Below, piece by piece: positions 430 to 45,265 of a DNA stretch of 64,000 bases (position 1 is the stretch's first letter; every line of letters starts with the position of its first letter). Where the stretch lies: contig CM059429.1 of NCBI GenBank assembly GCA_030390025.1, positions 27,838,001 through 27,902,000 on the forward strand, in the 5' to 3' direction. The notes under the pieces are model-generated. The model saw only the letters and a list, made by a program, of their open reading frames with translations. It searched no databases and had not been told where the DNA came from. The translations under genes and the position numbers were made by a program. The stretch is from Squalus acanthias. Taxonomy: Eukaryota.

Positions 430-1650
430 CGTGTTCACTCAATTCCAAAACCAAAATCTTCAAACCTGCCAACAAAGGGGGCACTGTTGTCATATAGCAG
501 AAGAACCTCTACCCTGCAGAAGCTGAACGCCTACATTCTGATAACTCCTCTGATTTCCCACAGGACCATGACTCCATTATTGCACTTCAAAATATAACTT
601 CAAAGACTGTCACTGGTCTCGCCTTTTCCTGAGACCTTCCCCATGGCCTCCAACTTCGTTGTTCCCCATCTAGCACAGCTCATTTACATGTTCCCCAAAG
701 ACTATCCCAGTAGATCGACTGTTTCAGGCTGCTCACTGTGTCACTGGACAAATTTCCTCTTGCGTTTACTTTTTCTCTTGGTCAGACTCTCCCCATTTAC
801 ATCCATGATTCTTCTTATTTGCTCTGCCACCTTGATGACCTCAAGTTCCCCAGCACTAATTGTCTCCGTTTCACCAAGGTTCTTCTACACCTCCATCCCT
901 CATCAGGATGATTTCTGGGCCTTCTACTTCTTCCTTGAACAACGGCCCAACCAGTCTCCATTCACTACTACCCTCACCACCTGGCTGAACTTGTTCTTAT
1001 CTTTGAACAATTTCTCTTTTAACTACAAAAGCAAAATACTGCAGATGCTGGAAATCTGAAATAAAAACAGAAAATGCTGGAAATACTCAGCAGGTCAGGC
1101 AACATCTGTGGAGAGAGAAACAAAGTTAATGTTTCAAGTCGATGACCTTTCAGCAGAACTGGAAAAAGTTAGAGTCTCTTTTAACTACACTCCCTCCAGA
1201 TAAAAGGTGTCACTAAAGGAACCCAGTTATGTCTGCTCTTTTGAGAAAGTTCCAATTTCTTCCTGACATCCTGTTACATTGATGACTATGTTAATGCTGC
1301 TTCCTGCTCTCACTTTGAAGATGAGAATTCACCAATTATGCTTCCAATTTCTACCCATCCCTCACCATTGCATGTTGACTCTTCCCTTTCTGGACTTCAC
1401 TCTTTCCATTTCTCCCAATGGGCTTTCCATGGATATCTATTACAAGCCCACCTTCTGCCCTACTAGCCTCCACCGGTTGACATTACAGGTCCAGAAATTT
1501 CATCAGAACACAGTTCTGGCAAGGGGGTTCTATGTCCAAGGTGTTCATGTGTTTCTTCTCTTTTTCGGACTGGCACCCCTACTGCATGCTTGCAGAATTT
1601 TTCTGTTTTCATTTCAAACATTCTGCATCTGCAGGTTCTTGCCTTTTTAA
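430..1650 (+). mobile_element. Old degenerate Penelope-like retroelement (RT remnants plus 3' tail)
   Basis: FKPANKGGTVV-like motif at ~460, LYTSIPH at ~885, YIDD at ~1275, DIYYKPT at ~1432; decayed PLE tail at 1580-1650; many frameshifts. Confidence 0.75.
1028..1174 (-). mobile_element. Short PLE 3'-end insertion (family B) with mutated hammerhead
   Basis: Reverse complement of the tail at 45115-45262; 15-bp TSD TCTCTTTTAACTACA (1013-1027, 1175-1189); core reads CTGCTGA..GAAACATT. Confidence 0.85.
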
Positions 1651-1951
1651 TTGTGGGGGCCTTTCCTATATTTTTTTATATTAGCTAAACAGAGGGATCT
1701 GTGGATGGCATACTAGAGGTGACTATGTGGAGTCACCTCTGGTATCAATTGATTTCAGATGAATTCAAAACTATTGAAGTTGAAATTTGTATATTTTTCT
1801 GTAAGTTTTTAAATAGAAATATGTGCTTGTCTGTATAGACAGATCCCTTAATACAGACATTTAAACCACATACTTTATTAAAGAGGGACAGAAAACTGAA
1901 ATCGTGAGCACAAAATAAGACAGTTTCTCAAAGTCTCTCTGCTATTAACAT

Positions 1952-2126
1952 GATGCGGAGATGCCGGCGTTGGACTGGGGTGGACAAAAATGAGAAGTCG
2001 CACAACACCAGGTTATAGTCCAACAGATTTATTTAAAATTACAAGCTTTCGGAGCTATCCGAAAGCTTGTAATTTTAAATAAATCTGTTGGACTATAACC
2101 TGGTGTTGTGCGACTTCTCATTTTTG
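1952..2126 (-). mobile_element. Fold-back PLE mini-insertion (family A)
   Basis: Perfect 69-bp arms 1985-2053/2058-2126 around loop GCTA; unpaired tail 1952-1984 matches the 3' end of the PLE at 13770-13810; TSD TGCTATTAACAT (1940-1951, 2125-2136). Confidence 0.9.
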
Positions 2127-2489
2127 CTATTAACATAGATAGGTAGAGCTCTAACTAAAATAACCAGTTTTAATTCATAAACCATACTAACAAAGGGAGA
2201 CAGCACTGAGGATAATAACTCTCTTTACCGTATGCAAGGTTGTCTGATAATTCAGCAGACTATGATGCCATCTTATACTCCACTGTAGGCAAGAATAATA
2301 ATAAATCTGCAAGGTATCATAATAACAATACCAATACCAAAGCTGTATACTTCATAACTCAGCTTGAGTACCTTCACTTTCTCAACATGGTGCATAGGAA
2401 AGAGCAGAGGAGTGGGACTAATTGGATACCTCAGAGTTGGAACAGGCATGATGGGCCGAATGGCCTCCTCCACAATGTGATCTCTGTGG

Positions 2490-3293
2490 TGAGAAGTTTG
2501 CCTTTTTCGACGTTCAATTGATTTCAGCACTCTGTAATGGGAATTCCGAGTGCAATGCTGCTGTGACGTCATCAAGCTGTCTAAGCAGCCAATCACATTG
2601 CAGAATTCTCACAGACAGGAAACGAGGAAATGCTTTTATCCAGACTTTTAAAAAATGTTACAGACAGCAAAATAAAGATTGGGACTCTCACATGGGAATA
2701 AGGTAGAAGCTGAAATATCACGAACAAACTTTAAAAAAAAGTTTTTTAAAAATTGTAATTTTTATCAAAATGGAGAAATTTGACACTCCACAAATATAAA
2801 AATTAGTTTTTCAGGGCAAGAATATTTGTTTACCAGTTAATACGCTGTTAAAATCCCAGTTACACCTATTCTAACAAGGCTTAACATTTAATGGTTAATG
2901 ACCTTTCGTCAGAACATGAAATGTTAACTCTCTTTCTCCACAGATGCTGCCTGACCTGCTGAGTATTTCCAGCATTTTCTGTTTTTATTTCAGATTTCCA
3001 GCATCCGCAGTATTTTGCTTTTGTATTAACGTTTAATGGGGTATTTAACAGCGATATTAGCGCAGAAAAGCCCAGGTTTTCATCAGTTCCACTGATTTCA
3101 TTGATTGCCAGCTGTGGGGGGAGGGTGGTTCACAGCATAGCCAGTGCCGGAGTAGTGAATGACTGACCGCAACTTCAGGATTTCCGCGTTTAGATGCGCA
3201 TATGCAAAATCCTGAAGTTGCGGTCAGTTTCAGTGGGGTAATGATGGCGAATGCTGTGAGTTCGCCGTCATTACCCACTGCAAATTCCGGGCC
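2490..3293. mobile_element. Harbinger-type MITE (right end intact, left end unclear)
   Basis: Terminus ACTGCAAATTCCGGGCC and subterminal hairpins resemble the reverse complement of the left end of 39358-40279. Confidence 0.65.
2895..3025 (+). mobile_element. Short PLE 3'-end insertion (family B) with an inverted ribozyme fragment at its 5' end
   Basis: Tail matches 45156-45262; TSD TTAAC(A/G)TTTAATGG (2881-2894, 3026-3039); TGACCTTTCGTCAGAAC is the inverted hammerhead core. Confidence 0.85.
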
Positions 3294-3299
3294 AAAAAA

Positions 3300-3575
3300 C
3301 CATGGCTCTGCCTGCTATTTCAGGTAGGCATAAAAGATCCCAAGTCACTATTCAAAGAAGAGCAGTGAGCTCTCCCAATGGTTTGACCAGGATTCCTTCC
3401 TCAACCAACACCTGCAAAAAACAGATTCATCTAATTTTCTGTTCGTGGAACATTGCTGTACACAATTGGTCTACAAAACAACATTGATTGCACTTCAAAA
3501 GCAATTAGTTGGTTGTGAAGCACTCTGGGGTATACTGAGGATGTGATAAAGTGCTATATAAATGCAAGCTCGCTC
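3300..3575 (+). mobile_element. Deu-domain SINE body and L2-like tail
   Basis: Aligns by eye to 18180-18470; ends GCTATATAAATGCAAG. Confidence 0.7.
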
Positions 3576-3819
3576 TTTCCAGTGCAAAAGCTGCATGTGG
3601 CTTTAATACATTCTTAGGTATAACCCTACATGGTTGATACAATTATTTAAGAAACAATTTTCAGATGTGACAGTTCTGCAACACTAAGGCATGGGGAGAG
3701 CAAACTCAACTCTGTGATTGGCTAACAAAGCTTTAACAAACCACTGATCTGCTCACAGGTAACAATGCATTGAGATTGTTTATCAGTGCTTCTCTATTTA
3801 AATGTTCCACCTAATGGGG

Positions 3820-5058
3820 TGACTAATCTAATTGAATTTTTGATGAAGTAACAAAGAGGATTGATGAAGGGAATGCAATGGATGTTGTCTACATGGATTT
3901 TCGGAAGGCGTTTGACAAAGTACCACATAGAAGGCTAGTTAACAAAATTGAGGCTCATGGAATAGGTGGGTCAATAGCAGCTTGGATAAGGAATTGGCTT
4001 AAGGACAGAAAACAGCGAGTTGTGGAAAATGGCTGTTTTTCAGACTGGAGGATGGTAGACAGTGGTGTTCCCCAAGGGTCAGTGCTGGGGCCACCAATGA
4101 CCTGGATATTGGAATACAGAGTAGAATTTCTAAATTTGCCGATGACACCAAACTTGGGGGTGTGGCAAACAGTGATGATGATATCAATCGACTGCAACAG
4201 GACATAGAAAGGCTAGCAGAATGGGCAGACAAGTGGCAGATGGAATTTAATACAGAGAAGTGTGAGGTGATGCATTTTGGCAGAAGGAACAGGGAGAGGC
4301 AATATACACTTAATGGCACAGTTTTAAAGAGTGTGCAGGGACAGAGGGACCTGGGAGTTAATGTACATAGGTCCCTGAAGGTGGCAGGACATATTGAGAG
4401 AGTGGTTAACAAAGCATATGGGATCTTGGGCTTCATAAATAGAGGTATTGAGTTCAAAAGTAGAGAAGCTATGCTAAACCTTTATAAAGTGCTGGTTAGG
4501 CCACAACTGGAGTATTGCATCCAGTTCTGGTCACGACACTTTAGGAAGGATGTGAAGGCCCTTGAGAGGGTGCAGAGGAGATTTATCAGAATGGTTCCAG
4601 GGATGGGGGCTCTTAGCTACAAGGACAGGTTGGAGAAGCTAGATTTGTTTTCATTAGAGCAAAGGAGGTTGAGGGATGATTTGATAGAGGTGTACAAGAT
4701 TATGACGGGTTTGCATAGGCTAGACGGGGAAAGGCTGTTCCCACTAGTTGATGGTACAAGAACTAGGGGACACAGATTTAAGGTTGTGGGCAAGAGATAC
4801 AGGGGGGATGTGAGGGAAAACTTTTTTATGCATCGAGTGGTGAGGACCTGGAACTCGCTGCCGACAGAAGTGGTGGAAGCGGAGACAGTCGATGTTTTCA
4901 AGGGGAGACTGGATAGACACTTGAGGGAAATAAACTTGCAGGGCTACGGGGATAGAGCGGGGGAATGGGACTGACTGGATTGCTCTACAGAGAGCCGGCA
5001 CAGACTCGATGGGCCGAATGGCCTCCTTCTGTGCCGTTATGACTCTGACTCTATGACT
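3820..5058 (+). mobile_element. CR1 LINE, 5'-truncated, RT C-terminal half
   Basis: ORFs 3878-4207 and 4162-4974 with DFRKAFDKVPH, GVPQGSVLGP, KFADD, LEYCIQFW; (ATGACTCT)-like microsatellite tail. Confidence 0.95.
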
Positions 5059-8000: not shown

Positions 8001-8527
8001 TCCATATCCCATCTGGAGTACGGTGTGCAGTTGTCAAATAATCACAGGAAGGGGATATCATTATCTTTGGGATGGTACAAATGTATTAAAAAAATTATAT
8101 CGACTGGGATAGTAACAGTGTAAAGGGCAAAGAGGGGGAGGAATTCCTGAAATGTATACAAGAGAACTATCTTGATAATGTGTTTCCAGACCAACGAGGA
8201 AGGAAGCAGAGCTCGATGTAGCTCTGGGGAATGAAGTGGGGGAGCATTTGGGGTACAGTGATCATATCATCAGGTTTAGAATAGTTATAGAAAAGGGCAA
8301 AGAACAATCATGTGTAAAAATACTTAACTGGAGGAGGACTAACTTCAGTGAGTTGATAAGGGGATCTGGCCCAGGTGGATTGGAATCAAAGTTTGGTAGG
8401 CAAAACAATAATTGAACAATGGGAGGCCTTCAAGGAGGAGCTGGTTTGGGTACAGAACAGACACAGTCCCACGAAGGGGAAAGGAAGGGCATCCAAAACT
8501 AAAGCTCCCTGGATGACTAAAGATATA

Positions 8528-10345: not shown

Positions 10346-10573
10346 AACAACAGAAAACGCTGGAAAAACTCAGCAGGCCAGGCAACATCCGTGGAGAGAG
10401 AAACAGAGTTAACGTTTCAGGTTGAAACCCTTCATCAGAACTCTGACGAAGGGTTTCGATCTGAAACGTTAACTCTGTTTCTCTCTCCACGGATGTTGCC
10501 TGGCCTGCTGAGTTTTTCCAGCGTTTTCTGTTGTTGTTTCAATTTTCCAGCATCCGCAGTATTTTGCTATCGT
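10346..10573 (+). mobile_element. Fold-back PLE mini-insertion (family B) with back-to-back hammerhead cores
   Basis: ~93-bp inverted arms centred near 10440, unpaired ~37-nt tail, 14-bp TSD ATCAGTATTAGGAC (10332-10345, 10574-10587). Confidence 0.92.
10404..10445 (-). ncRNA. Minimal type I hammerhead ribozyme motif
   Basis: Minus strand CAGAGTT-CTGATGA-AGGGTTTCAACCT-GAAA-CGTT-AACTCTG: 7-bp stem I, conserved core, palindromic ACGT stem III. Confidence 0.8.
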
Positions 10574-11001
10574 ATCAGTATTAGGACCACTGCTATTTTT
10601 GATATATATTAATGACCTGGACTTGGCATACAAGGCATAATTTCAAAGTTTCCAGAAGACATGAAACTCGGAAATGTAGTAAATAGTTAGGAGGATAGTA
10701 ACAGACTTGAGGAGGACATAGACAGACTGGTGAAATGGGCAGACACATGGCAGATGAAATTTAATGCAGAGAAGTGTGAAGTGATACATTTTGGTAGGAA
10801 GAATGAGGAGAAGCAATATAAACAAAATGATATAATTTTAAAAGGGGTGCAGGAACAGAGAAACCTAGGGGTTTATGTACACAAATCCTTGAGGATAGAA
10901 GGACAAGTTGAGAAGGCTGTTAAAAAGCACATGGGATCCTTGGCTTTTTTAATCGAGAAGTCGCACAACACCAGGTTATAGTCCAACAGTTTTATTTGAA
11001 A

Positions 11002-11043
11002 TCACAAGCTTTCGGAGCTATCGATCGCCCCTTCCTCAGGTGA
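11002..11043 (-). ncRNA. Minimal hammerhead ribozyme motif (inverted pLTR copy)
   Basis: Minus strand TCAC-CTGAGGA-AGGGGCGATCGATAGCTCC-GAAA-GCTT-GTGA. Confidence 0.8.
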
Positions 11044-11894
11044 AGTAAAGAGATACAGAATCGCCAAAGCATATATAGATAGAGAACAATGCATGTGTTA
11101 CTTACAAAAGCAGACGACTACATTTAAATCACCCTGACTGTTTATCTGCCGAGGTGTGACAAAAGGCAATCAGGTCACATCAAAGACATAGCAAGATACA
11201 ACTGAGACAATGAGGTGGAGCCACAGGGGGTCCAATGTGTCAAAAGCCGCAGTATGGGAAACGATAAACTTTAAAATTTTTACTTTTTTACTGGGAATCA
11301 CATCTGTTAACAAGCCAACGACGACTCGAGTCTGGATCACGTCATGTATCGTGACATAAACCCAAGATCCCGGTTGAGGCCGTCCTCATGAGTGCGGAAC
11401 TTGGCTATCAGTTTCTGCTCGATGATTTTGCGTTGTCGTGTGTTTCTAAGTCCGCCTTGGAGAACGCTTACCCGCAGATCCGAGGCTGAATGTCCTTGAT
11501 TGCTGAAGTGTTCCCCGACTGGGAGGGAACACTCCTGCCTGGTGATTGTTGCGCGGTGTCCGTTCATACGTTGTCTCAGTGTCTGCATGGTCTCGCCGAT
11601 GTACCATGCCGCGGTGCATTCTTTCCTGCAACGTATGAGGTAGACAACGTTGGCCGAGTCACATGAGTATGTACCATGTACCTGGTGGGTAGTGTCCTCA
11701 CGTGTGATGATGGTATCTGTGTTGATGATCTGGCATGTCTTGCAGAGGTTGCCGTGGCAGGGTTGTGTGGTGTCGTGGTCGCTGTTATCCTGAAAGCTGG
11801 GTAATTTGCTGCGAACGATGGTACTTCTGAGGTTAGGCGGCTGTTTGAAGGCAAGTAGTGGAGGCGTGGGGATGGCCTTAGCGAGGTGTTCGTC

Positions 11895-13384
11895 GTCGAG
11901 GGCATCCTGAAACCCATCGTACAGGGAACCCCCAGCTTCTGCCGTGACACCACAGACTTCTTACAGAAACTCAGCACCCACGGACCAGTTGAACCAGGAA
12001 CACTCCTCGCCACGATGGACGTATCGGCACTCTACACCAGTATCCCCCACGATGACGGCATCACTGCGACAGCCTCAGTACTCAACACCAACAACAGCCA
12101 ATCTCCAGACGCCATCCTACAACTCATCCGCTTCATCCTTGACCACAATGTCTTCACCTTCGACAACATTTTTTTACCCAAACACACGGAACAGCCATGG
12201 GGACCAAATTCGCACCCCAATACGCCAACATCTTCATGCACAAGTTCGAGCAAGACTTCTTCGCTGCACAGGACCTCCAGCCAACGCTGTACACCAGATA
12301 CATCGACGACATTTTCTTCCTTTGGACCCATGGTGAAGGATCACTGAAAAGACTACACGATAACATAAACAAGTTCCATCCCACCATCAAACTCACCATG
12401 GACTACTCCTCAGAATCGGTTTCATTCCTGGACACACGAATCTCCATCAAAGACGGACACCTCAGCACTTCACTCTACCGCAAGCCCACGGACAATCTCA
12501 CGATGCTCCACTTCTCCAGCTTCCACCCTAACCACGTTAAAAAAGCCATCCCCTATGGACAAGCCCTGCGAATACACAGGATCTGCTCAGACAAGGAGGA
12601 ACGCGATGGACACATACGGACGCTGAAAAACGCCCTCGTAAGAACGGGATATGACGCTCGACTCATCGATCGACAGTTCCGACGGGCCACAGCGAAAAAT
12701 CGCATAGACCTCCTCAGAAGGCAAACACGGGACACAACCAACAGGGTACCCTACGTCGTCCAGTACTTCCCCGGAGCGGAGAAACTACGCCATGTTCTTC
12801 GCAGCCTCCAACATGTCATCGATGACGACGAACACCTCGCTAAGGCCATCCCCACGCCTCCACTACTTGCCTTCAAACAGCCGCCTAACCTCAGAAGTAC
12901 CATCGTTCGCAGCAAATTACCCAGCTGTCAGGAGAACAGCGACCACGACACCACACAACCCTGCCACGGCAACCTCTGCAAGACATGCCAGATCATCAAC
13001 ACAGATACCATCATCACACGTGAGGACACTACCCACCAGGTACATGGTACATACTCATGTGACTCGGCCAACATTGTCTACCTCATACGTTGCAGGAAAG
13101 AATGCACCGCGGCATGGTACATCGGCGAGACCATGCAGACACTGAGACAACGTATGAACGGACACCGCGCAACAATCACCAGGCAGGAGTGTTCCCTCCC
13201 AGTCGGGGAACACTTCAGCAGTCAAGGACATTCAGCCTCGGATCTGCGGGTAAGCGTTCTCCAAGGCGGACTTAGAAACACACGACAACGCAAAATCATC
13301 GAGCAGAAACTGATAGCCAAGTTCCGCACTCATGAGGACGGCCTCAACCGGGATCTTGGGTTTATGTCACGATACATGACGTGA
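11895..13384 (+). pseudogene. PLE reverse transcriptase plus GIY-YIG endonuclease (N-truncated, one frameshift near 12170)
   Basis: TMDVSALYTSIPH, AMGTKFAPQYAN, YTRYIDD, Cys linker PCHGNLCKTC, GIY-YIG NIVYLIRC...WYIGET; ORF 12197-13384 open for 395 aa. Confidence 0.93.
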
Positions 13385-13677
13385 TCCAGACTCGAGTCGT
13401 CGTTGGCTTGTTAACAGATGTGATTCCCAGTAAAAAAGTAAAAATTTTAAAGTTTATCGTTTCCCATACTGCGGCTTTTGACACATTGGACCCCCTGTGG
13501 CTCCACCTCATTGTCTCAGTTGTATCTTGCTATGTCTTTGATGTGACCTGATTGCCTTTTGTCACACCTCGGCAGATAAACAGTCAGGGTGATTTAAATG
13601 TAGTCGTCTGCTTTTGTAAGTAACACATGCATTGTTCTCTATCTATATATGCTTTGGCGATTCTGTATCTCTTTACT

Positions 13678-13719
13678 TCACCTGAGGAAGGGGTGATCGA
13701 TAGCTCCGAAAGCTTGTGA
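13678..13719 (+). ncRNA. Minimal hammerhead ribozyme motif in PLE 3' pLTR
   Basis: TCAC-CTGAGGA-AGGGGTGATCGATAGCTCC-GAAA-GCTT-GTGA; stem I TCAC/GTGA, palindromic AGCT stem III. Confidence 0.82.
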
Positions 13720-14779
13720 TTTCAAATAAAACTGTTGGACTATAACCTGGTGTTGTGCGACTTCTCATTTTTGTCCACCCCAGTCCAACACCGGCATCTC
13801 CGCATCATGACCTTTATTAATCGAGGCACAGAATACAAAAGCAAGGAAGATATGCTAAACCTTTATTAAATACTGGTTAGGCCTCAGCTGGAGTATCGTG
13901 TCCAATTCTGGGCACCACACTTTAGGAAGGATGTCAAGGCCTTAGAGAGGGTGCAGAAGAGATTTACTAGAATGGTACCAGGGATGAGGGACTTCAGTTA
14001 TGTAGAGAGATTGGAGAAGCTGGGATTGTTCTCCTTAAAGCAGAGAAGGTTAAGAGGAGATTTGATAGAGGTGTTCAAAATCATGAACAGTTATGATAAG
14101 AGTAAATAAGGAGAAACTGTTTCCAGTGACAGAAGGGTTGGTAACCAGAGGAAACAGATTTAAGGTGATTGGCAAAAGTACATGAGGAAGCATTTTTTTT
14201 TATGCAGCGAGTTGTTGTGATCTGGAATGTGCTGCCTGAGAGGGTGGTGGAAGCAGATTCAATAGTAACTTTCAAAAGGGAATTGGATAAATACTTGAAG
14301 GAAAAAAAAATACTGGGCTATGGGGAAATAGCAGGGGAGTGGGACTAATGGGATAGCTCTACCAAACAGCCGGCACAGGCACAATGGGCCAAAGATTCTA
14401 TGATTCCAGTTATCAGAATTTAAGTCATGCAGAAATGTCAAGGAAATTGGACTTTTTTTTGGAAAAAATAATTTAAAGTAATCTAATTAGAGTTTTCAAG
14501 ATTATGAAGGGAATTAACAAAATTGATCCAAGCAAATTGTTCAGGGTTCAATTGCCAGGGATACAAGAATGAAATGGGATGTCCGGCAGAAGGGTTGAAC
14601 TGTAGAACAAGTTAACAGGGAATACTATTGATGTGGACAGCATTAATGGTTTCAAAAAACAATTTTTGAAAACAAAAGGAATTTAGGGACGGGGTGAGAA
14701 GGCAGGTAAACAGAGTTGATCACTGAAAAGGCCTAATGGTCTTTTCATGTTCCTAGAAATCACCTTTTCTTTCTCTAAG

Positions 14780-18470: not shown

Positions 18471-18479
18471 TTGTAAAAT

Positions 18480-21300
18480 TTATTATATACCTCTTTACAA
18501 TCAATTCTTAGATGCCTCCTTTCCAAGCTGAAAACTCAGAACCATGACACTAGGGATCAGCCCTGCGGCTCTTCTTTGCACTGCTTCTAAGGCCTGAATT
18601 ATTTCTCAATGAGCAGAACTGAGCACAGTATTCATAGTATAGTCTGACCAGAAGACTCTGCAGTTTTATCATGACATCCTTTGATTTGCATTCTACTGTT
18701 TTGGCTACGTAGTTCAACATTCTATTGGCGTTGTTTATTGCTGCTCTGCACTGGTTGGACATGTTGATCATTGTGTCTGCTAAGACTCCAAGGTTGTTCT
18801 TTAACTTCATCCTTAGCTACTTCATAACCATTCATGGAGTGTGTTGCCTGGTTTTTCCTTTTATGTGCAGTAATTTATACTTGTCTGCTTTGCATTTCAT
18901 CTACAATTGTTCTGCTCACTTACAATGTTTGCACAGCTGACTCTGTAATTTCTGAGCTACCTCGTCTGATTTTCATTGACCCTCCCTGTTTGGTATTATC
19001 TGTGAATTTGACTAATGCGCACTGAATTTCGGAATCCGGTCATTCAAGTAAATTAGAAACAGTCGGGGTCCCAACAATGGGCACAGTACTAATTATTTCC
19101 CCCCATCCCAACATAACTCCTCCAAAAAGGAGCTGCTATTTTTTTCACCCAGCATCTAATTCTTCTATTAATTTCCAAAATTTACCCTGAATCCTCACAG
19201 TTGAGTTTAACTAACAGTTTTTGAGTGGAACTTTGTCAAAATCCTTTTTGATGTCTAGACACAACATATCGTATGGTTTTCCACAGTCCACTTGGCTTGT
19301 CATTTCCTCAAAGGAGTTAAGGAGGTTGTTCAGGCAGTATATACCCCTTCTGAATCCATGTTGAGTTCTGTTTGTTTGGTTATTACTGTATAGATAATCC
19401 TCAAGCATATTCCTAATAATTGATTCCAGCAGTTTATATGGAACGGAAGTAAGATTAATGGGTCCGTAGTTACCCGTGTCTCTTCCATCACCCTTTTTGA
19501 ATATGGTCACCACATTAACTGCTTTCCAATCTACTGATACCTCCCCAAGATCTGGTGACTCCCTCATAATGATTGTCAGTGTCTCACAAATCTCCTCCCT
19601 AGTCTTTCTCAGCACTCGGATAAGTACTATTTATCTCGAGAGATTTATTTGTTTTGAGCCCTTTTAGTCTATCTAGGACTTTCATCCCATTTATATCAAA
19701 ATCATTGATTTTTCACAGCTTATCTCATGTTGCTCTTGTCTTCCCTTGTGAAAATTTGAAGTAATAATTCAGAATATTTACAAAATTTGTGGTCAAGCTT
19801 ATTTGTATCTTTTAATGTTCTCACCTCTTCTCTGACTGCCCTCTTACTACTGTAATACAGAAATAATTTTTTACTGTTACATTTTTCCTGTGCAATTATT
19901 TTTTTTCTAAGGTTCTCTTTGCTCCTCCATTCCTTTTAACATATTTCTGCATGTTTCTATAATCATCCCAATGAACCCATTTCTATTTCTCCCCTTAGGA
20001 TTTGTCGAAGTCATTCTACCTTTTCATTTCACTTTTAAATTGTTAATCCATTTAGGTTCATGCTTGTTTAGTCTCAGCTTGTTAACTCCAACTTACTTTT
20101 TTGGTGGGGTTTTGCACTAGGTACTTTTACTACAGCAAGTTATCCTTCCCAACTGAAAATACCCATTGTCTTTTTTTTTATAAATAGTCTCATCTTTTTA
20201 TTTCATCTTCCTTTCCTCCGGGCTAGATTTTGCTGGAGCAGGGCATCTCATGTCGTGCACCATTAGTTAGACTTGTTTGTGTGCCGTTTAGGTTTCTAAA
20301 TTTTTTGCCTACAAAGTACGAGCTGATAATGGGCAACAGGACATCTGGGACCTTGGTGAACAACAGGGCAAACAGTGTATCTCCTTAACCAATGAGATTT
20401 AAGGATTGAGAAATTAAGAGGAAGGACTGAGAAGGAGATGTAAATTAGAGTGGGTGAATTTGTTGTCAAATCAGGTACAGAAAGAGAAATAAAGAGAGAG
20501 AAAGAAAAATTAGGTTGAGAGAGAAAAAGAGACAAAAAGGAAAAGTAAGAACATTTTTTTAAAATGTGACATTTTTAATATCTCCTAAAACAATTCACAA
20601 CCTGAAGGAATGAGACTCAACACTTAGTTCACTTTTGGGGCAAGAGAGGTTGTTTGTCATTAACAATTATAACAGTTAAAAAGGTACTTACACTGTTAAT
20701 TACTAGATTTAACTTTCTGTGGGTTGAGTGGGCAGTTAATGTGCAAATGCAGCAACTTCATGAAAATCGCAGGGAGGTTAAGCACAAAATGCTGTTTTCG
20801 CAAAGTTAGCAGTGGAGCAGTGCAAATCGGCCAGCAACTTGTGGCGATTCGCAATTCACAGGGTCTCTCTTCCTCGCTACAAGTTGCTGGCCTTTCTGCA
20901 CTGCTCAGACGCAGTTATTTTTTCAGCAAAATCTGTCCCTCAGCCTTTTTACTTTTCCTTTTGAAAGCACATTTCTTTTTAAAATTTAATTTTACTTTTA
21001 CTTTCATAGCTTCATGCCCTCAAGTTTCATCTTGATGCTTATTTGTTTTACCTTTTTCTTCACCCTCGTGTTCTTGTTTTTGAACTTTATTGCCCTCTTC
21101 TTTTTCATTTACAAAATTAATTTAATGACTTTCTTTTTTACTACTGAATATTTATCTAAACTAGTCATTGGGCCATTCTCACAATAGGACCTCATAAATA
21201 AATAAAATGACCAATGAATTCATAACCAAAGAGGTTTGGTTATAGTCCTGCATTTAGTTGCAAGCTCTGGGCTTTGGCACCCTATACAAATTCATCACCT
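18480..21300 (-). mobile_element. Old CR1 LINE
   Basis: Minus ORFs with IFKKGD..GNYGPINLTS, QHGFRRG, DFDKVP, EYCAQF. Confidence 0.85.
20220..20939. mobile_element. Harbinger-type MITE inside CR1
   Basis: TIRs GGGCTAGATTTTGCTG / CAGCAAAATCTGTCCC; flanks TCC/TCA. Confidence 0.75.
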
Positions 21301-22879: not shown

Positions 22880-23086
22880 TGACGTGGAGATGCCGGTGTT
22901 GGACTGGGGTGGATAAATGTGAGAAGTCGCACAACACCAGGTTATAGTCCAACAGTTTTATTTGAAATCACAAGCTTTCAGAACGCTGCTCCTTCGTCAG
23001 GTGACGAAGGAGCAGCGCTCCGAAAGCTTGTGATTTCAAATAAAACTGTTGGACTATAACCTGGTGTTGTGTGACTTCTCACATTT
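22880..23086 (-). mobile_element. Fold-back PLE mini-insertion (family A variant)
   Basis: Arms ~22916-22999/23002-23086, ~35-nt unpaired tail, 12-bp TSD TCCCCATTTCTA (22868-22879, 23086-23097). Confidence 0.9.
22968..23004 (-). ncRNA. Minimal hammerhead ribozyme motif
   Basis: Minus strand TCAC-CTGACGA-AGGAGCAGCGTTCT-GAAA-GCTT-GTGA; stem II weakened by C>T changes. Confidence 0.7.
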
Positions 23087-27550: not shown

Positions 27551-28304
27551 GGGCCAGAAATTCGGCTCTCCGGCTTCCCGCGGGTGCAAGCATCGCGCGC
27601 GTACTTACCTAGCGCGCCTGCCGTTGTGCTTCGGGCCCGCGTGGAATTCGGCTCCTGGGCCTCCTGCAGCTGCCGGCGCGCAGTGCCTGCGTATCCCAGG
27701 GGCGCAGTTAGTTCGAAGCGTCCCCTGGGATCACGTGGGCCATGGAGAGCCAATCGGAGCAGGAAATCTCCATTCATAGATTTTGACAGGAAGACCTGTC
27801 AAAATCTATGAATAGAGATCGGCCCCAAAACCTCACTAAAACTTCAAATAAATTAAAAAAAAAAATCACATTTTTAAAATAACTATAAATTACATAAATT
27901 AACTACTTTAAACAAAAATTTAAATTTTTGAAAAAATTAATTACACTTTTTAACGGTGCTAAAAATAAACTTACCTTTCGTTAAAGTATGTAAAAAAGAT
28001 AAACCTGTTGAAAAAATGTTTAAATTGTACTTAATTCACCACTTACCTTGTTAAAAGCAGGCCTTGCGCCTCCTTTTCTCCTGCGCAGCTTCTCCGTACT
28101 TACCCTCACGGAGAAACCTGAAAAAAACCCGAAGTTCGCTGCGTGTGCGCTGCCTCTCCGGCGCACGCGTTCGACCTCTGAACCCCTTCCTTCAGGGGAA
28201 CGGAAGTTCCGGTTTCCAGCGCATGCGCGAAACCGGCACTTTCGTTGGGTCTACGGGTGAGTACACAGCGCGTACTCACCCGCGGAGACCCGAATTTCTG
28301 GCCC
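27551..28304. mobile_element. Harbinger-type MITE family B, copy 1
   Basis: TIR GGGCCAGAAATTCGG / CCGAATTTCTGGCCC; GC-rich arms, AT-rich core; related to 38558-39275; no matching TSD visible. Confidence 0.85.
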
Positions 28305-28309
28305 AATAT

Positions 28310-32679: not shown

Positions 32680-32805
32680 TAAAAGCAAAATACTGCGGAT
32701 GCTGGAAATCTGAAATTTAAAAAAGAAAATGCTGGAAATACTCAGCAGGTCAGGCAGCATGCTGCTTGACCTGTTCAGTATTTCCAGCATTTTCTGTTTT
32801 TATTA
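32680..32805 (-). mobile_element. Fold-back PLE mini-insertion (family B) lacking the ribozyme
   Basis: Inverted arms centred on GCAGCATGCTGC (~32760); TSD ACCTC(C/T)ATTAGGA (32667-32679, 32806-32818). Confidence 0.85.
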
Positions 32806-32889
32806 ACCTCTATTAGGAACCTTCCATGGAGAAATGTCTGGGTTGGAATGTCTGTACAATGAATGGATGTTCATTAGCAAAAGGTGAAC

Positions 32890-35940: not shown

Positions 35941-36296
35941 TCGGGTGACTGTCTGTGTGGAGTTTGCACATTCTCCCCGTGTCTGCGTGGGTTTCCTCCG
36001 GGTGCTCCGGTTTCCTCCCACAGTCCAAAAATGTGCGGGTTAGGTTGATTTGGCTATGATAAATTGACCCTTAGTGTTAGGGGGGGATTAAATATGTGGG
36101 GTTATGGGGATAGGATGGGATGTGTTAGGGGGAATTAAATACGTGGGGTTACGGGGGTAGGGTGGGATATGTGTACTGTGGGGATTAAAGCAGGGACAGG
36201 GTACTGGATTTGAATGATCAGCCATGATCATATTGAATGGTGGAGCAGGCTCGACGGGCCGAATGGCCTACTCCTGCTCCTAGATTCTATGTTTCC
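35941..36296 (+). mobile_element. HE1-type V-SINE, 5'-truncated
   Basis: Near-identical to 33164-33517. Confidence 0.93.
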
Positions 36297-38557: not shown

Positions 38558-39275
38558 GGCCCGTATTTTCCGATCGGAGGCTTCCTGCGTGAGGAGGCCT
38601 CCGATCTGGAAAAAATCTACAGACTTACCTGAGGGCTCCCGAGGTGCGTATACTTCTGTTCCTGGGCCTCTCCAACTCGAAATGTGCAGGGCCCACATAT
38701 CCCAGAGGCGCATGCAGTTCGCAAGCGTCCCTGGGATCATGTGGGCCATGGGGAGCCAATAGGAGAAGATAGACCTGTCAAATATATGAATGGAGATCAT
38801 CCCAAAAACACTGTAAAACATTAAATAAATTTTTTTTTAAATCACATTTTTTAAATGAGTTGAAATTACAATAAATTAAATATTTTAAACAAAAATTTAA
38901 TTTTTTGAAAAAAGTAATTAGTTTTTTTACAGGGCTAAAAATAAACGTACTTTTTTTTAAAAAGTATTTTTAAATGATAAATGAGTGAAAATGTTTTTTT
39001 TTTACTTTTTTCCTCTCTTATGCTGGTAAAAGCAGGTACCAGGTGTAAGATTTCTAAGGGTTTTCTGCGGGCGGAGGTTCTCCAGAAAGCGGAACTATCC
39101 GCCCGCAGAGGACCTACTCCAGGGCAGGCGTCCGATCTGTCAAGAGCATTCTTGACAGATCGGAAATGCCGGTTTTCAGCGCGTGCACTTGACATGCCTG
39201 AAACTGGCATTTCCGATGTCCCTACGGGTGTGTACACAGCGCGTACACACCCGTAGGGATCGGAATATACGGCCC
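38558..39275. mobile_element. Harbinger-type MITE family B, copy 2
   Basis: TIR GGCCCGTATTTTCCGATC / GATCGGAATATACGGCCC, ATA TSD. Confidence 0.85.
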
Positions 39276-39357
39276 ATAATGTTTAAATACAATTCTCATC
39301 AATTTTTGCGGTCGGCTTTGAGCCATATGCTGGTTATAAAATTCTTTGGATGATCTT

Positions 39358-40279
39358 GGGCCAGAATTTGCGGTGGGTATGACGGTGTACTCTCAGAGTA
39401 CGCCGTCATAACCTTTGAAATGGACAGCAAGTTCAGGATTTCCGCAAGTGCTAAATCCCAAATTTGCAATCTGACAAGTTACGATTTGACAGATGATCCG
39501 CACCGATGGGGAAATCCTCATTGCTGGTGCAGAGTTGGGCTAATTGCCCACCAACTGCCCAGCAATTATGAAAATTTTAAGGCTGATGCAAACAGGCACA
39601 GGACCTGTTTGCATCAGCGTAAGGGGATACCTCAAAAGATCCAAAGGATCGTTCGGCATGTTTTAACATCATTTTTATCTCAGATCGTTTGGTTATCTAG
39701 GAGGGAAATAGTGCTATTGTGTTTTTATCCTCCATTGCATTCCATAAAATGTCCGAGATTTTGCATGGAAGTCTGTGGCTAATGCAAAGGGACCATTATT
39801 AAATAAGAGGCGGTCAGGGCCATATGCGAATATATTCTCAGCAGTCGGACTGTTTAATTTTCTGCAATCGTGTACCGTTTGAGGTGTTCAAATTGATCCA
39901 TATATCGCCATCCCCATTCATAACTCAACATCGTTAATTAAACAGACACAAAGTACATATTTTACAAAAATGTATTGTATAGATGTTTATGCACATTTAA
40001 ATCCCGAAAGGTTCTAGTAGAGGGTTTAAATGAATGTATGGTTAAGTAACAAAATTGAGTTATGAATGGGGATTGCGATGTATGATGATTGGAGTACCAG
40101 GCCCGCGTGATCCCAGGTACGCTTCCACACACGCTGCGCCCCTGGGATCCGTGGGCCATTACGCTGCCCTCCAGTAAGCAGCATCAAACAGCAAGTTCGT
40201 GAAGGAGGGTCCCCATTAGGTAAGTTCGTATTCTATTCGGATACTGGTGACGTACGCCGCCGACCGCAAAATCTGCCCC
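39358..40279. mobile_element. Harbinger-type MITE family C
   Basis: TIR GGGCCAGAATTTGCGGT / ACCGCAAAATCTGCCCC, CTT TSD, subterminal hairpins. Confidence 0.85.
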
Positions 40280-41542
40280 CTTATCTGCTTTTGAGAGTGC
40301 CTATGTTGGCTCCTGCTACTGAATTGAAAGGTATCATAGGAAGCAATCTTTAGAAGACTCAAAATGGAGTGTAAGCTTTTTCAATAAACCTCCTGAGTTG
40401 ATCAAAATAGAATGAAAAGGTTGCATTAATGTGAATTTTGTGCATTACACAGATGTTTGTAGAGTAATAAACTCCAAGCCATAGGCCCAGGAACAAAATG
40501 ACACAGAAATGCTGGAGACAGAAAGAGAATTACAGTATGACGCATGTTATAGAGGAAGTATGAGAAACACTTCCTCTATTAAAGAGGGGAAATGTTAAAA
40601 TAAAGGGTTACTATATTTCCTATAAACTATTTATGCAAAAGGTGCTTTTCAAAGAGAAACTGATTTTTTTTTTGACCTCTACTGCACGTAAACTTCAACC
40701 AGACATTCCAGTTTCAATCATCATGAAGAATGACCAGCACACTTATGAGTGTTAACGCCTACGCTTCTTTCCCTCTCCTGATACTCCTACTTTTACTTAC
40801 CAATGAAATAACTTTAACACCCACACAGTAATGACAGGCTCATTGAACTGCTCTAGAGGTGCTGGAATATCAACAATGATAACACTGTCACTACAGTATT
40901 TAAGCAGTTTTCAAACTCTTAAAAGAGATTAATATGCCTTTTGTCCACCCACACAAACTGTATTTCCAAATTACTTGCAGCTTTTAAATATGCAAAAAGA
41001 TGATCCATTTGCACAGCCCAGTAGTTCACAGCCAACGCTGCAGGCTGTATTTTCATTAGTACCTATTGACAACATAAGCAGTCACATGTACCATCTTGCT
41101 AAATTGAAGACTGCTGCATGATTGAAGGGCAAGTCTGAAGGTCGAATAAGTCTGTCTTGCAGCCTACCCTCAGTTTGGCATGGCAATATGCTTGGTGCTA
41201 AATTTTCACCTGAATTGGCAGTAACACTGTTTCAAGTGCAAATGCCTTTGTACTTTTGCCCTAAGCACTATATATTATTTTAAATTTGATGTAAATTAAA
41301 ATGGTGGAACCGAAGGTGAATTTCCACTTTATTTGACTGCTATGCGTGGCATGCATGAAAGATAGGACTGTACACAAACATAGATGGCAGACAAGTGCCC
41401 ATACTCAGTAAAAATGGGAAGCCAACTTGATAAAGTGTGGGGGGGAAAAAGGGTCCTAGATTTTATAAATAAAGATATGGTACAAAACCAGAGAGATAAT
41501 GCTAAATGTATACATGTCATTCATTAGGCTAGTTAGAACATT

Positions 41543-41730
41543 AGGAGTGATTCCGTGGTCATAAACGGAACAACACTTGCACAGATTGCTGGCTGGGAAA
41601 TCGCAGGCATGCAGTATCTGATTTTCCATCCATTTAAATTAATAGGCTGAAAATAAAGCATTGTGGACCTGCGATTTCGCAGCCAGCACTTCCTGTGAGT
41701 AACAATGTGCCCAACTATGGAACTAGTCCT
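41543..41730. mobile_element. Small hairpin MITE
   Basis: Imperfect TIR AGGAGTGATTCC/GGAACTAGTCCT, internal IR GCTGGCTGGGAAATCGCAGG..CCTGCGATTTCGCAGCCAGC; interrupts CR1. Confidence 0.65.
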
Positions 41731-42094
41731 ATCGTGAACAGCTTTGGGTACCAGGGATGAGTGGCTTCAGGTATGAGGAGAAACTAAAGAAAATGGGACT
41801 CTTCATTAAAGCAAAAAAGGTTAAGAGGAAATCTGATCGAGGTGTTCAAAATGATGAGGGATTTGGATAAGGAAAATTGGGAAAAGATATTTTCACTGAA
41901 CAGTGAGCTGGTAACCAGATGGCATGAAGTTGAGATCAATGCCAAAAGAATGAAGGGAGAGATTAAGGGATTTTTATTTTTGTACAGAGTATTGTTACGG
42001 CATAGAATGCCCGACCAGAAACAGTGTTGGAAGCATAATTCATAATAGCTTTTAAAAGGGAAGTGGGTAGAAATTTGAAAAAGAAAAATTTAAA

Positions 42095-42972
42095 GGGGGA
42101 AAAATTCAGTATCGCCCCGTTTGGGGAGCAATTATCGGCCGGGCGCAAAGATTGGCGCCTGGCGCTAATTATCGCCTCCAAATGCAAACTTGACTTTTAT
42201 CGCCCCTGGAGGTGATTGGAGCGCTAAATCGGGCGCTACACATCTGTCTTAAGGCGCAAAGGCCGAGGAGCGAGGCGCTAACTCAGAGTGCTGGCGAAGC
42301 TCATGTGATGTCAGTCAGCAATGGAACACAGACACAATGGCCCCGACCAGTTCTTAAAGGGGAGGGTTGATCTTGCTTTCCATCCACATCCTGTTCATTG
42401 CAGCCTTGAATCTCGGCCTGGAGAGACCTGTACATCAAATCTGCTGGAAAGAACAATGGAGAGGCCCAGGGAAAGAGCTCAGAGTGCAGCTCCCACAGTC
42501 TCTTCTAAATCGATACAAGGAAGGGCAAATCAAAATGAACCTGCAAAGTGCTGCTCAGTACCCAAAACTCCTTCACACAGCGTTGAATCTCTCCAGAAGT
42601 CTCTCTCTCTCTCAGAATGCGTGGTTCAAAAATGTCGCCAACAAAAAAAGGCAGGAAGCAGTCGCCTTTAAATAGCACTTCCCCGGTCCCTTCCTGACTG
42701 CAAAACGCTCCCCTCAACCTGTCGTTGCCAGCGGCAGGCGGTAAGGCAGGGGGCGCCACTCAATATCCGCTCCGGGGCGTTGCGCACTCGACTGACGTCA
42801 TGATCTGCCAGCGCAGGAGATCGTGGCGGTACTGTTTAGCGCCGCCACAAAATGTCTAGTTAATTTCGCAAGCGGTGCAAACATCGCCGCGCCCGGGCGC
42901 TAGTTGCTTTGCGCCCCATTAGCGCCCTCTTAAGGTGCTAACGGGAGGCGCAACCAACTGAATTTTTCCCCC
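42095..42972 (+). mobile_element. Harbinger-type MITE family A, copy 2 (complete)
   Basis: Perfect TIR GGGGGAAAAATTCAGT / ACTGAATTTTTCCCCC, AAA TSD. Confidence 0.9.
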
Positions 42973-44521
42973 AAAGGGTACAGGGAAGGGACAGCTGAAT
43001 GAGACTAAGTGGACAACTCTTTCAGAGAGCTGGCACAGGAACAATGGGTTCCTTCTATACTGTAAAATTCTATAATCCTGGTTGGAGCATTTCTGTTTTG
43101 TTTCTATTGTCAAAATTTATTTTCAAAATTTTCTTTTGCTAAACTTTTGTGTATTCTGGAGAAATGTTCATCTAGTATGTTTTTTTCCTGCACTGCTTCA
43201 TAATAATACCAACCATATGCAGATACTAAATTGCATAAGAAGCATAAAGGTCAAGTTATTTTGTAGGACATTCTCGTGTGGCGTGTCCCCTCATCTAAAT
43301 ATCATACTTGCTAATACCAAAGTAAGCAGTGAGGCAAAAATATCTACCAGTAAAAGCTAATGTAATCCCCTTGTTTGCACCACTGAGTTAAATCGTAACA
43401 GCTGATCTTCCTCTCTTGGCACTGTCCAAGAGAACTTAGTGCTGAGCTCACTGGAAGTGCACTATTGGGGTCCAAGAGCTGAGTGCCTGAATTTCCTCTA
43501 GGGCCTCATTTGAATTCCAATTACATGCATCAGACACATGTGGGAACACAATATTGGTTGCAGCCATGAAGAGGAAGTATGGGCGCTCTTTGAGCCAGTA
43601 GAAATCTTAAAAGGCAGACACAGTGGAAGCCCCAGGAAAGAGATATCAAGGTATGTGAATATTCTAGTGCACAGAATAGAAAATATTAAAAATGCCAGCT
43701 GCAGATGAGTTTTGGAAAGTGGTAAAATTAATTACAGCTGGACAAAAGTTGTCTTTCAGTTGTGTAGGCTTCTCCTTTAGTGAAATGTGACATATCCTGA
43801 CAACATGTGTATGCTGTTGTGCCGTGGAAGAGTTGGCAGCAATAACCCCAACAAGAGTCTGGGCTCTCTAGCAGTCTATCTGAGAAGGTTTTGGAAAAAG
43901 GAGTACTGTAGTGAAAATCAGCACGCGCACACACACACACACTTTAAATAAAGAACTGTAGTGTTCATTGTCACTTCAGAATATAGAAGAAGAGGGTTCG
44001 GAAAACATTGGTGTTGAGATAGAATAAGGGTGATGGTTTTACTGTAAAGGAGCTTTTTTATTGAAGGCAGGATTTGTTTAGCTTAAACCCGCAACAGTCT
44101 GACCCAGAGGCAAGAATACTACCAAATAAGCCAAGCTAGCTCATGTCTTTGAGTTCCTTTCTTTGTTACTTGCCTTCTTTTTCTTTCTGTTCTCTCTTTC
44201 TTTGTTTTTTTCTCCCCATCAATGTCTCTACTCACCCCCAACCAAAATGGAATGCAGATACAATACAGAATTCGCCCATGAGTGCTTGCTGGTAGATCAA
44301 GCTGACAAATCAAGGAACAACAATAATAATCGCCTTGTTCTGAAAGCTTGTTATATTTTTTATCTTAACCGTCAGACTTAAAATTGGATTGCGTAGAAAT
44401 CAAAATGAACACAGAAAAGTTACACAAAGGCTTTTGATTTACTGGACACTGTCAGGTTTTCCACTTTCTAATATGGATAGGTTACTGCTCTTGCATTGTA
44501 AATGTGATAGTAAAGAAATTT

Positions 44522-45265
44522 CCAGGTGAAACAGCGATTTACTTGTACTTCTTGCAATTTAGTATACTGTATTCGCTGCTCACGATGCGGTCTCCTCTAC
44601 AGTGGGGAGACCAAACGCAGATTGGGTGACCGCTTTGCGGAACACCTCCGTTCAGTCCGTAAGGGTGTCCTCGAGCTTCCGGTCGCCTGTCACTTTAATT
44701 CTCCACTCCACTCCCACTCAGACCTCACTGTCCTTGGCCTTACACTGTTCCAATGAAGCTCAACGTAAGCTCGAGGAACAGCACCTCATCTTTCGATTAG
44801 GCATTTTACAGCCTTCTGGACTCAACATCGAGTTCAACAATTTCAGACTATAACCTCTGCCCCTCTCTTTTTTTTCCATTTTTTTCTCTCTCTCTCACAT
44901 GGCAGCTGTCTTTCATTCTGCTGTTGCCATTTACACTTCATCTAGAGCCATCTTTTGTTTCTTAACTTGTCCCATTACCATCTCCTTTTGCCTTGCACCA
45001 TCATCCCTTTTGTCTCTTAATCTCTCCTGCCTTCCATCCTATCAGACCTTCCCTTTTGTTCTTTCCTCCCGTCCCCTCTTTCCCTGCCCCTACACTTGCT
45101 TAAAAACCTGTTCTATCTCCAGCTTTTTCCAGTTCTGATGAAGGGTCATTGACCTGAAACGTTAATTCTGTTTCTCTCTCCACAGATGCTGCCTGACCTG
45201 CTGAGTATTTCCAGCATTTTCTGTTTTTATTTCAGATATCCAGCATCCAGTATTTTGCTTTTGTG
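44522..45265 (+). mobile_element. PLE family B 3' fragment with GIY-YIG remnant
   Basis: NLVYCIRCSRCGLLYSGETKRRLGDRFAEH; 12-bp TSD GTAAAGAAATTT (44510-44521, 45266-45277). Confidence 0.92.
45131..45167 (+). ncRNA. Minimal hammerhead ribozyme motif
   Basis: AGTT-CTGATGA-AGGGTCATTGACCT-GAAA-CGTT-AATT. Confidence 0.75.

What the first reader, a model, noticed from the sequence alone, without database searches (positions are those of the whole stretch)
1028..45265. Series of tiny fold-back Penelope insertions that often turn around at the hammerhead ribozyme
Seen: seven PLE insertions from two families (1028, 1952, 2895, 10346, 10958, 22880, 32680) plus 44522, all with 12-15 bp TSDs. Five are palindromes with a 33-44 nt unpaired 3' tail. 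In 1952, 2895, 10346 and 22880 the inversion point lies inside or within a few nt of the hammerhead motif, and 1028 ends ~15 nt upstream of it. Established: PLEs carry minimal hammerheads and form inverted pLTRs with a tail. Inference: the uncleaved ribozyme fold is a preferred RT stop or strand-switch site, producing a class of MITE-like, ribozyme-bearing retro-hairpins in sharks.
Basis: partly seen in the sequence, partly recalled or inferred. Interest (0 to 1): 0.75.

Follow-up and report, generated by a model that had tools for sequence, protein, structure and literature searches.

The report
Penelope fold-backs at predicted transcript start
These short mirror-image insertions are leftovers of a known class of jumping gene (Penelope-like elements), and three of the eight stop at the front edge of the element's hammerhead-ribozyme motif, likely because the element's RNA begins there and the copying enzyme ran off its end.

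Summary
The eight insertions, two families, 12-15 bp TSDs and one-sided tails are real. The layout (inverted copy, tail, TSD, hammerhead) is published for Penelope-like elements. Corrections: 2895 is a twin-priming-type inversion, not a palindrome, and only 2 of 5 small inverted inserts keep a whole hammerhead. Turns anywhere inside the hammerhead (4 of 8) are not clearly beyond smooth truncation (P 0.03-0.19). The sharper signal is that 3 of 8 insertions end within 0-3 nt of one point at the ribozyme's 5' edge (P about 0.001, window chosen after the fact). In both families that point is an initiator match with a TATA-like box 31-32 nt upstream (perfect in family A, weak in B). These cDNAs crossed the whole ribozyme before stopping, which fits run-off at the transcript start better than a stop at the fold. 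Two of four fold-back junctions shown from public contigs end there too; the other two end in loop II. No junction repeats in the window, so a self-propagating MITE-like class is unsupported. No genome or RNA test was possible. The scan noted the run-off idea before on other shark DNA.

The parts
1028..1174 (-). Family B, 147-nt 5'-truncated copy with tail, not inverted; 5' end 14 nt upstream of the predicted start; hammerhead core changed; TSD 1013-1027/1175-1189
1952..2124 (-). Family A head-to-head insert; tailed arm ends in loop II (+24), untailed arm at +30; 2-nt junction microhomology; only the 3' half of the hammerhead; TSD 1940-1951/2125-2136
2895..3025 (+). Family B twin-priming-type inversion: tailed direct piece starts at +24; inverted 21-nt piece (2895-2915) covers +1 to +21; the two bases between them match the last two bases of the left TSD; TSD 2881-2894/3026-3039
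10346..10573 (+). Family B head-to-head insert; arms end at +3 (tailed) and 0 (untailed); complete hammerhead on the minus strand only; TSD 10332-10345/10574-10587
10958..13811 (+). Family A long insert: 943-nt inverted arm (to 11897), then a 5'-truncated RT/GIY-YIG ORF (about 11895-13384, frameshifted near 12165-12170), 3' UTR, hammerhead and tail; TSD 10944-10957/13812-13825
13644..13651 (+). Family A perfect TATA-box match, 31 nt upstream of the initiator A (mirror copy gives the site at 11046 on the minus strand)
   Evidence: consensus recalled; function inferred
13673..13679 (+). Family A initiator match; predicted +1 = 13675, 3 nt upstream of helix I
   Evidence: predicted
13678..13719 (+). 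Family A minimal type I hammerhead motif; predicted cleavage 13715/13716; AATAAA at 13725
22880..23085 (-). Family A (other stem II subfamily) head-to-head insert; tailed arm ends at +3, untailed at +8; 3-nt microhomology; complete hammerhead on the minus strand; TSD about 22868-22879/23086-23097
32680..32805 (-). Family B head-to-head insert turning at +55, 22 nt downstream of the cleavage site; no hammerhead; TSD 32667-32679/32806-32818
44522..45265 (+). Family B 744-nt 5'-truncated copy (end of the GIY-YIG domain, 3' UTR, hammerhead, tail), not inverted; TSD 44510-44521/45266-45277
45099..45106 (+). Family B weak TATA-like box (2 mismatches), 32 nt upstream of the initiator A
   Evidence: inferred
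45129..45167 (+). Family B initiator match (predicted +1 = 45131, first base of helix I; also reads as a 3' splice acceptor) and minimal hammerhead 45131-45167; predicted cleavage 45163/45164

Best explanation
These are dead, one-off insertions of two endonuclease-bearing Penelope-like retrotransposon families, and the short ones turn at the hammerhead likely because the element's transcript is predicted to start 0-3 nt upstream of helix I, so that reverse transcription primed 95-135 nt downstream would run off the RNA's 5' end there. Steps: (1) shown: staggered target cuts 12-15 nt apart (TSDs). (2) Inferred from the fixed untailed end and from in vitro work on the Anolis element: each cut end primes cDNA at one of two start sites that flank the tail. 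(3) Shown by the sequence: most cDNAs cross the cleavage site, so the template was uncleaved. (4) Inferred: cDNAs primed near the 5' end of a transcript, or on short transcripts from truncated copies that keep the TATA box, stop at +0 to +3; others stop earlier (stem II may be a weaker stop) or run far on a downstream copy. (5) Inferred: the two cDNA ends join through 1-4 nt of microhomology, giving head-to-head arms with one tail. (6) Predicted: the short products lack the TATA box and bury the ribozyme, so they do not spread.
For: 3 of 8 insertions (4 of 14 arm ends) stop at +0 to +3; smooth nulls give P 0.0003-0.0013 for a 7-nt window. Family A has one perfect TATA plus initiator pair in 1914 nt, at this point; the window has 4 such pairs in 128,000 nt, two being this element's copies. 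Family B has one pair (TATA with 2 mismatches) among 17 initiator matches in 744 nt, again at this point; background 0.014 per 7-nt slot. Public contigs: an opposite-strand joint at 45132 (+1) in 3 of 4 runs, and a family A fold-back in another species' run whose long arm I read as ending at +1 to +4 (1 contig). Untailed 3' ends pile at 45231/45232 in all 4 runs (547 and 690 contigs in X1), matching two initiation sites flanking the tail and extension of both strands in PMC11167929. 2895 shows a second priming from the left TSD end. In 10346 the untailed arm reaches 3 nt further than the tailed arm, which snap-back on one cDNA does not give. The Drosophila promoter lies in the 3' pLTR and can drive downstream transcription (PMC2377424).
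Against: No RNA evidence for the start. Family B's TATA is weak, and the same point reads as a splice acceptor. Drosophila Penelope has a TATA-less internal promoter and starts about 120 nt upstream of its hammerhead. 1028 ends at -14, and 10958 and 44522 run far past the start, so they need a longer template. Two of the three opposite-strand joints shown end in loop II (+18, +20), not at the start; only 15 of 771 joints and 24 of 4183 loose ends and 12 of 119 loose ends were shown. 26 contigs with mixed flanks begin at 45161 and one joint partner lies at 45167, both within 3 nt of the cleavage site, so cleaved templates may contribute. Arms share private changes (1952: 0 of 67 differences between arms, 3 each from the reference), which fits snap-back or later conversion as well as two primings on RNA from one source.
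Confidence: 0.55

Rival explanations
1. One reading: the folded, uncleaved hammerhead (mainly stem II) stalls reverse transcriptase or promotes strand switching.
For: 1952 and the tailed arm of 2895 both end at +24, in loop II or at the 3' base of stem II. Joints 45149/45185 and 45151/45184 recur in 9, 2, 9 and 5 contigs of the four runs. Uncleaved RNA is the main template in vitro (PMC11167929).
Against: Structure stops should lie on the 3' side of a helix, yet 3 of 8 insertions pass the whole fold and stop at its 5' edge. The isolated motifs do not fold as hammerheads in the lowest-energy prediction. 4 of 8 inside the motif is P 0.03-0.19 under smooth nulls.
Confidence: 0.2
2. No hot spot: ordinary heavy 5' truncation, with the hammerhead hit often because it lies only 50-135 nt from the 3' ends.
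For: A best-case exponential puts 23-30% of ends in the motif. Breakpoints range from +55 to -1777. Unchecked scan notes list palindromes of 166 to about 1100 bp in this genome. The depth step at 13703 is a subfamily boundary, not truncation.
Against: It does not explain three insertions from two families ending within 4 nt of each other on a promoter-like site (P about 0.001 before correction), nor two contig junctions at the same point.
Confidence: 0.15
3. The boundary is an exon start, not a transcript start: spliced RNA departs from the genomic pLTR at a 3' splice site at helix I.
For: Family B has a pyrimidine tract and CAG ending at 45132 (sequence). In D. virilis the intron ends at the 5' end of helix I (PMC4209133).
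Against: Family A has no AG at that point but has a perfect TATA and initiator. No upstream-exon sequence appears at the junctions (0-1 extra bases).
Confidence: 0.06
4. The hairpins are a self-propagating, MITE-like non-autonomous class.
For: A few junctions recur in several contigs and in three organisms. Tandem retrozymes derive from PLE pLTRs (bioRxiv 10.64898/2026.07.22.740005).
Against: 0 of 6 same-family pairs share a junction; each insert has one tail and its own TSD; no TATA box is kept; the hairpin would bury the ribozyme. The best-supported joints have summed depth of at most about 575 against millions at the same place (depth is not copy number, and symmetric small-loop junctions are poorly seen in contigs).
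Confidence: 0.04

Closest known systems
Insertion units of EN+ Penelope-like elements: inverted 5'-truncated copy, one-sided 30-40 bp tail, TSD (Arkhipova et al. 2013, PMC3846280; Craig et al. 2021, PMC8557442; passages read)
   Same: Head-to-head arms, one tail, TSD, palindromic junction. Adineta Pen2a also has a putative TATA box and initiator-like sequence in its pLTR.
   Different: Most units here are only 125-230 nt, and several end on one point at the hammerhead's 5' edge; the passages I read do not report such a cluster. Arkhipova 2013 explains head-to-head junctions by self-priming on an antisense template.
[quoted passage not shown]
   Same: Short helix I, palindromic stem III, extra base before stem II; the paper already notes pairs of motifs 100-700 bp apart on opposite strands.
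   Different: It does not map junctions or starts against the motif in the parts read.
Poseidon from Anolis carolinensis, PAc (Frangieh et al. 2024, PMC11167929; parts 1-2 of 4 read; supplements 2 and 3 gave no usable text, the sequence file could not be read)
   Same: Two internal RT start sites flanking the tail, both strands cut and extended, uncleaved RNA used, product length set by the template's 5' end.
   Different: Family A has a Cys-rich RT-EN linker (Neptune/Nematis type). The parts read do not treat inverted products or the in vivo transcript start.
Twin priming of L1 5' inversions (Kojima 2010, PMC2912911; passages read)
   Same: 2895 has an inverted, non-overlapping 5' piece with microhomology to the TSD end.
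   Different: The five palindromes duplicate the same 3' segment, which one continuous template region cannot give by L1-type twin priming.
Non-LTR retrozymes (bioRxiv 10.64898/2026.07.22.740005; part 1 of 5 and passages read)
   Same: Short, non-coding, hammerhead-bearing derivatives of PLE pLTRs.
   Different: Retrozymes are head-to-tail tandems with two or more motifs; these are single head-to-head inserts, most without a whole motif.

Membership tests
EN+ Penelope-like element | [quoted passage not shown] | tested here: met
   Family A ORF matches full-length RT-EN proteins at 40-64% over 97-98% of its length; Pfam RVT_1 hit is weak and below cut-off; family B's 5' end matches the EN domain at 34-43%
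EN+ Penelope-like element | Inverted 5'-truncated copy with one-sided 30-40 bp tail, and TSD | tested here: met
   5 of 8 insertions have arms plus tail; 8 of 8 have TSDs
EN+ Penelope-like element | Minimal type I hammerhead in the pLTR | tested here: met
   Core and 4 of 4 helix I pairs in both families; no Rfam hit
EN+ Penelope-like element | Self-cleavage activity of the motif | not testable with these tools
   needs an RNA assay
Neptune/Nematis-type PLE | Zn-finger-like Cys motif between RT and EN | tested here: met
   Cys motif at residue 274 of the family A ORF; feature as stated in PMC8557442. Family B copy lacks this region
Neptune/Nematis-type PLE | Placement in an RT tree with named clade members | not tested
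   no named reference sequences were at hand
MITE (definition recalled) | Terminal inverted repeats at both ends with a short DNA-transposon TSD | tested here: not met
   One end carries an unpaired 33-45 nt tail; TSDs are 12-15 bp; both arms are retroelement 3' ends
MITE (definition recalled) | Many near-identical copies of the same unit | tested here: inconclusive
   0 of 6 same-family pairs share a junction in the window; a few junctions recur in contigs at low depth; no genome available
Non-LTR retrozyme | Head-to-tail tandem with a hammerhead in two or more consecutive units | tested here: not met
   No insert has two motifs on one strand with full helix I
Twin-primed inversion (2895 only) | Inverted non-overlapping 5' piece with microhomology to the TSD end | tested here: met

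The most novel reading that the evidence does not exclude
These Penelope-like elements replicate by a retrovirus-like strong-stop and jump: the pLTR works as U3 (TATA) / R (start to hammerhead cleavage site or poly(A) signal) / U5 (to the RT start sites). Target-primed cDNA starts near the RNA's 5' end, runs off at the cap and normally jumps to the matching 3' end that the downstream hammerhead or poly(A) site creates. The tiny head-to-head inserts are two strong-stop cDNAs that joined each other instead of jumping. This would explain why PLE copies end inside the ORF start, and give the hammerhead a job.
Probability: 0.15. Interest if true: 0.8.

Novelty: new variant of a known kind. Interest (0 to 1): 0.42.

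Why it matters
How Penelope-like elements make their inverted copies and pLTRs, and what their hammerhead does, is still open (PMC2377424, PMC3846280 and PMC11167929 all say so in the passages read). If short copies pile up at a transcript start that coincides with helix I, then the very abundant dead inserts in these genomes record the RNA's 5' end and the priming pattern at single-base resolution, and one genome-wide count can separate run-off, structure stop, cleavage and snap-back. The inserts themselves are ordinary by-products, not a new mobile class. Searches of the held library listed no paper that maps PLE fold-back points to the hammerhead or the start site; most subscription papers and Repbase/Dfam notes are not covered.

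Tried and rejected
No genome is held for this window, so the genome-wide plot could not be made. Pattern scans for more copies found 0 in viral contigs, 0 in genome contigs and 1 in metagenome contigs, a chance match in GC-rich bacterial-type coding DNA; dropped. Run search: no RNA holder listed on record, which is no evidence on expression; both read-laying runs went to DNA-type contig sets. Summed contig depth rises about 7-fold across the family B hammerhead, but I do not use it: the tool says it is no copy number, and in family A the same kind of step is a subfamily boundary (organism B has almost no cover upstream of 13701) with erratic depth upstream. One search gave no joints at all. 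Rfam: 0 hits. A hammerhead-like pattern at 906 (minus strand) and five other pattern hits lie outside the eight inserts and were not pursued. The 27766-27819 palindrome has no match to either family. The Anolis pLTR could not be checked for a TATA box: the sequence file of PMC11167929 is unreadable here and the figure supplement gave no text; it may bear on how general the arrangement is. A sequence look-up in earlier scan findings returned nothing. An extra C at the junction (copied cap) was considered: the next base is C in 10346, 22880 and the X6 contig but not in 2895, and in each case it can belong to the other arm; left as a test.
Full report
Observation. All eight insertions exist, with TSDs of 12-15 bp; the same search scored as high at 1 of 300 random pairs. 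Family A (1952, 10958, 22880) and family B (1028, 2895, 10346, 32680, 44522) are told apart by BLAST and alignment. Five have inverted duplicated arms and a one-sided tail of about 33-45 nt. 10958 is large (943-nt arms, 926-nt spacer). 2895 is an inversion without duplication. 1028 and 44522 are plain truncations.

Identity. The 10958 ORF is a 5'-truncated, frameshifted RT plus GIY-YIG protein: 222 relatives at E <= 1e-30 among 1679 candidates, the best at 40-64% identity; Pfam alone gave one weak RT hit for 1 of 3 queries. A Cys motif between RT and EN points to the Neptune/Nematis type as defined in PMC8557442 (passages); I built no tree. Both families carry a minimal type I hammerhead motif: 13678-13719 (A) and 45131-45167 (B). 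Rfam does not detect it. Among the five small inverted inserts, 10346 and 22880 keep a whole motif on one strand; forcing it to fold costs 43 and 53 kcal/mol against the hairpin.

Where the arms end. I mapped 14 arm 5' ends (positions entered by hand into). Counting from the point defined below as 0: 1028 -14; 1952 +24/+30; 2895 +24/+1; 10346 +3/0; 10958 -1777/-851; 22880 +3/+8; 32680 +55/+55; 44522 -609. The cleavage site lies at +41 (A) or +33 (B). None of the 14 ends is within 8 nt of it and 12 lie upstream, so these templates were uncleaved. Taking the furthest end per insertion, 4 of 8 fall in the motif, which smooth truncation can give because the motif is close to the 3' end (P 0.026-0.19). 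But 3 of 8 fall at 0 to +3 (P 0.0003-0.0013 for a 7-nt window; chosen after the fact, so perhaps 0.01-0.03 corrected). Reverse transcriptase travels 3' to 5' on the RNA (established knowledge), so these cDNAs had passed the whole fold.

What is at that point. With recalled consensus motifs, family A has one perfect TATA box plus initiator in 1914 nt (spacing 31, +1 = 13675); the whole window has 4 such pairs in 128,000 nt, two being this element's two copies. Family B has one pair among 17 initiator matches in 744 nt, with a 2-mismatch TATA (spacing 32, +1 = 45131, the first base of helix I); background 0.014 per 7-nt slot. I infer a transcription start there. No RNA data test it. In family B the point also reads as a splice acceptor, and in D. 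virilis an intron ends at helix I (PMC4209133) with a TATA-less start further upstream (PMC2377424, passages).

Outside evidence. No genome was held and collection scans gave no true copies. I laid contigs of 4 of the 24 listed runs on family B and 2 on family A. Untailed 3' ends pile at 45231/45232 in all four runs. Of 771 joints 15 were shown; 3 are opposite-strand: 45132/45167 (1, 2, 1, 0 contigs), 45149/45185 (6, 1, 4, 2) and 45151/45184 (3, 1, 5, 3). I read them as head-to-head joints with inner ends at +1, +18 and +20; the orientation is my inference. One search showed no joints and 12 of 119 loose ends; one, a single contig of organism B, is a fold-back whose long arm ends at +1 to +4. 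So 2 of 4 displayed fold-backs end at the predicted start and 2 in loop II. Against a clean story: 26 contigs with mixed flanks begin at 45161 and one joint partner is 45167, both within 3 nt of the cleavage site. Depth steps were rejected as evidence because one search shows that such a step can be a subfamily boundary.

Mechanism. In vitro, the Anolis element cuts and extends both strands, starts at two internal sites flanking the tail, uses uncleaved RNA and gives products whose length follows the template's 5' end (PMC11167929, parts 1-2 of 4). I therefore favour two primings, one from each cut end, with the cDNA ends joined by short microhomology (1952: 2 nt; 22880: 3 nt; 10346: 1-2 nt; 32680: 2 nt; 10958: at least 3 nt, inferred from the conserved protein motif). 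2895 shows the second priming directly: the two bases missing between its pieces match the end of the left TSD, as in L1 twin priming (PMC2912911, passages). In 10346 the untailed arm is 3 nt longer than the tailed arm. Snap-back remains possible (about one in three): in 1952, 10958 and 22880 the tailed arm is the longer one, and arms share private changes. Short arms would come from the start sites 95-135 nt below the transcript start, either in the 5' pLTR of a full transcript or in short RNAs from truncated copies that keep the TATA box, such as 44522 and 10958; the Drosophila 3' pLTR can drive downstream transcription. 1028, 10958 and 44522 run past the start and need a downstream copy or read-through RNA.

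Self-propagation. No junction repeats among 6 same-family pairs; the short inserts lack the TATA-like box. The recurring contig joints have small summed depth (at most about 575 per run for the two loop II joints) and may be old shared loci or repeated use of the same microhomology. A MITE-like class is not supported, but contigs see symmetric junctions poorly.

Comparison and novelty. Inverted copy, tail, TSD and junction palindromes are described (PMC3846280, PMC8557442; passages), as are opposite-strand hammerhead pairs (PMC4209133). Eight library searches listed nothing that maps turn points to the hammerhead or to a start site. Unchecked scan notes on other shark DNA reached the same layout verdict; one proposed run-off from the RNA start and one placed the motif at the mRNA's ends. 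I saw the first before running the promoter test, so the reading is partly reused; the TATA/initiator match and the position statistics are my own tests.

Verdict. Observation confirmed with small corrections; interpretation partly supported. Known kind of insertion; the cluster at a predicted transcript start is a new, testable variant (confidence 0.55). Interest 0.42.

Noticed in passing
window:381-1650: 1028 seems to sit in an old, decayed PLE-like remnant on the plus strand: weak RT-region matches at 381-590 (E 0.003-0.008) and a 77% family B 3'-end fragment at 1599-1646.
   Followed up: partly
window:10090-14400: 10346 and 10958 are both inserted, about 380 nt apart, into one LINE-like copy that is homologous to the repeat at 3836-4974.
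   Followed up: no
window:13725-13730: Family A has AATAAA 9 nt below the predicted cleavage site and upstream of both 3' ends; family B has none on the sense strand. If used, the 3' pLTR RNA would lack the RT start sites.
   Followed up: partly
window:13807-13809: The family A tail ends at an ATG that may be the ORF start codon.
   Followed up: no
window:10344-10537: All 3 differences between the arms of 10346 lie within 20 nt of the centre; the outer 77 nt are identical although 11-12 differences separate each arm from the 44522 copy. Possible arm homogenisation.
   Followed up: partly
window:27766-27819: 25-bp inverted repeat with a 4-nt loop, unrelated to either PLE family; other short imperfect inverted repeats at 20815, 39899, 41587 and 61613.
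   Followed up: no
window:33164-33517 and 35941-36295: About 350-bp direct repeat at 98-99% identity, 2778 nt apart.
   Followed up: no
L001:801-822: The only metagenome match to the family B pattern lies in GC-rich bacterial-type coding DNA; a chance match.
   Followed up: yes
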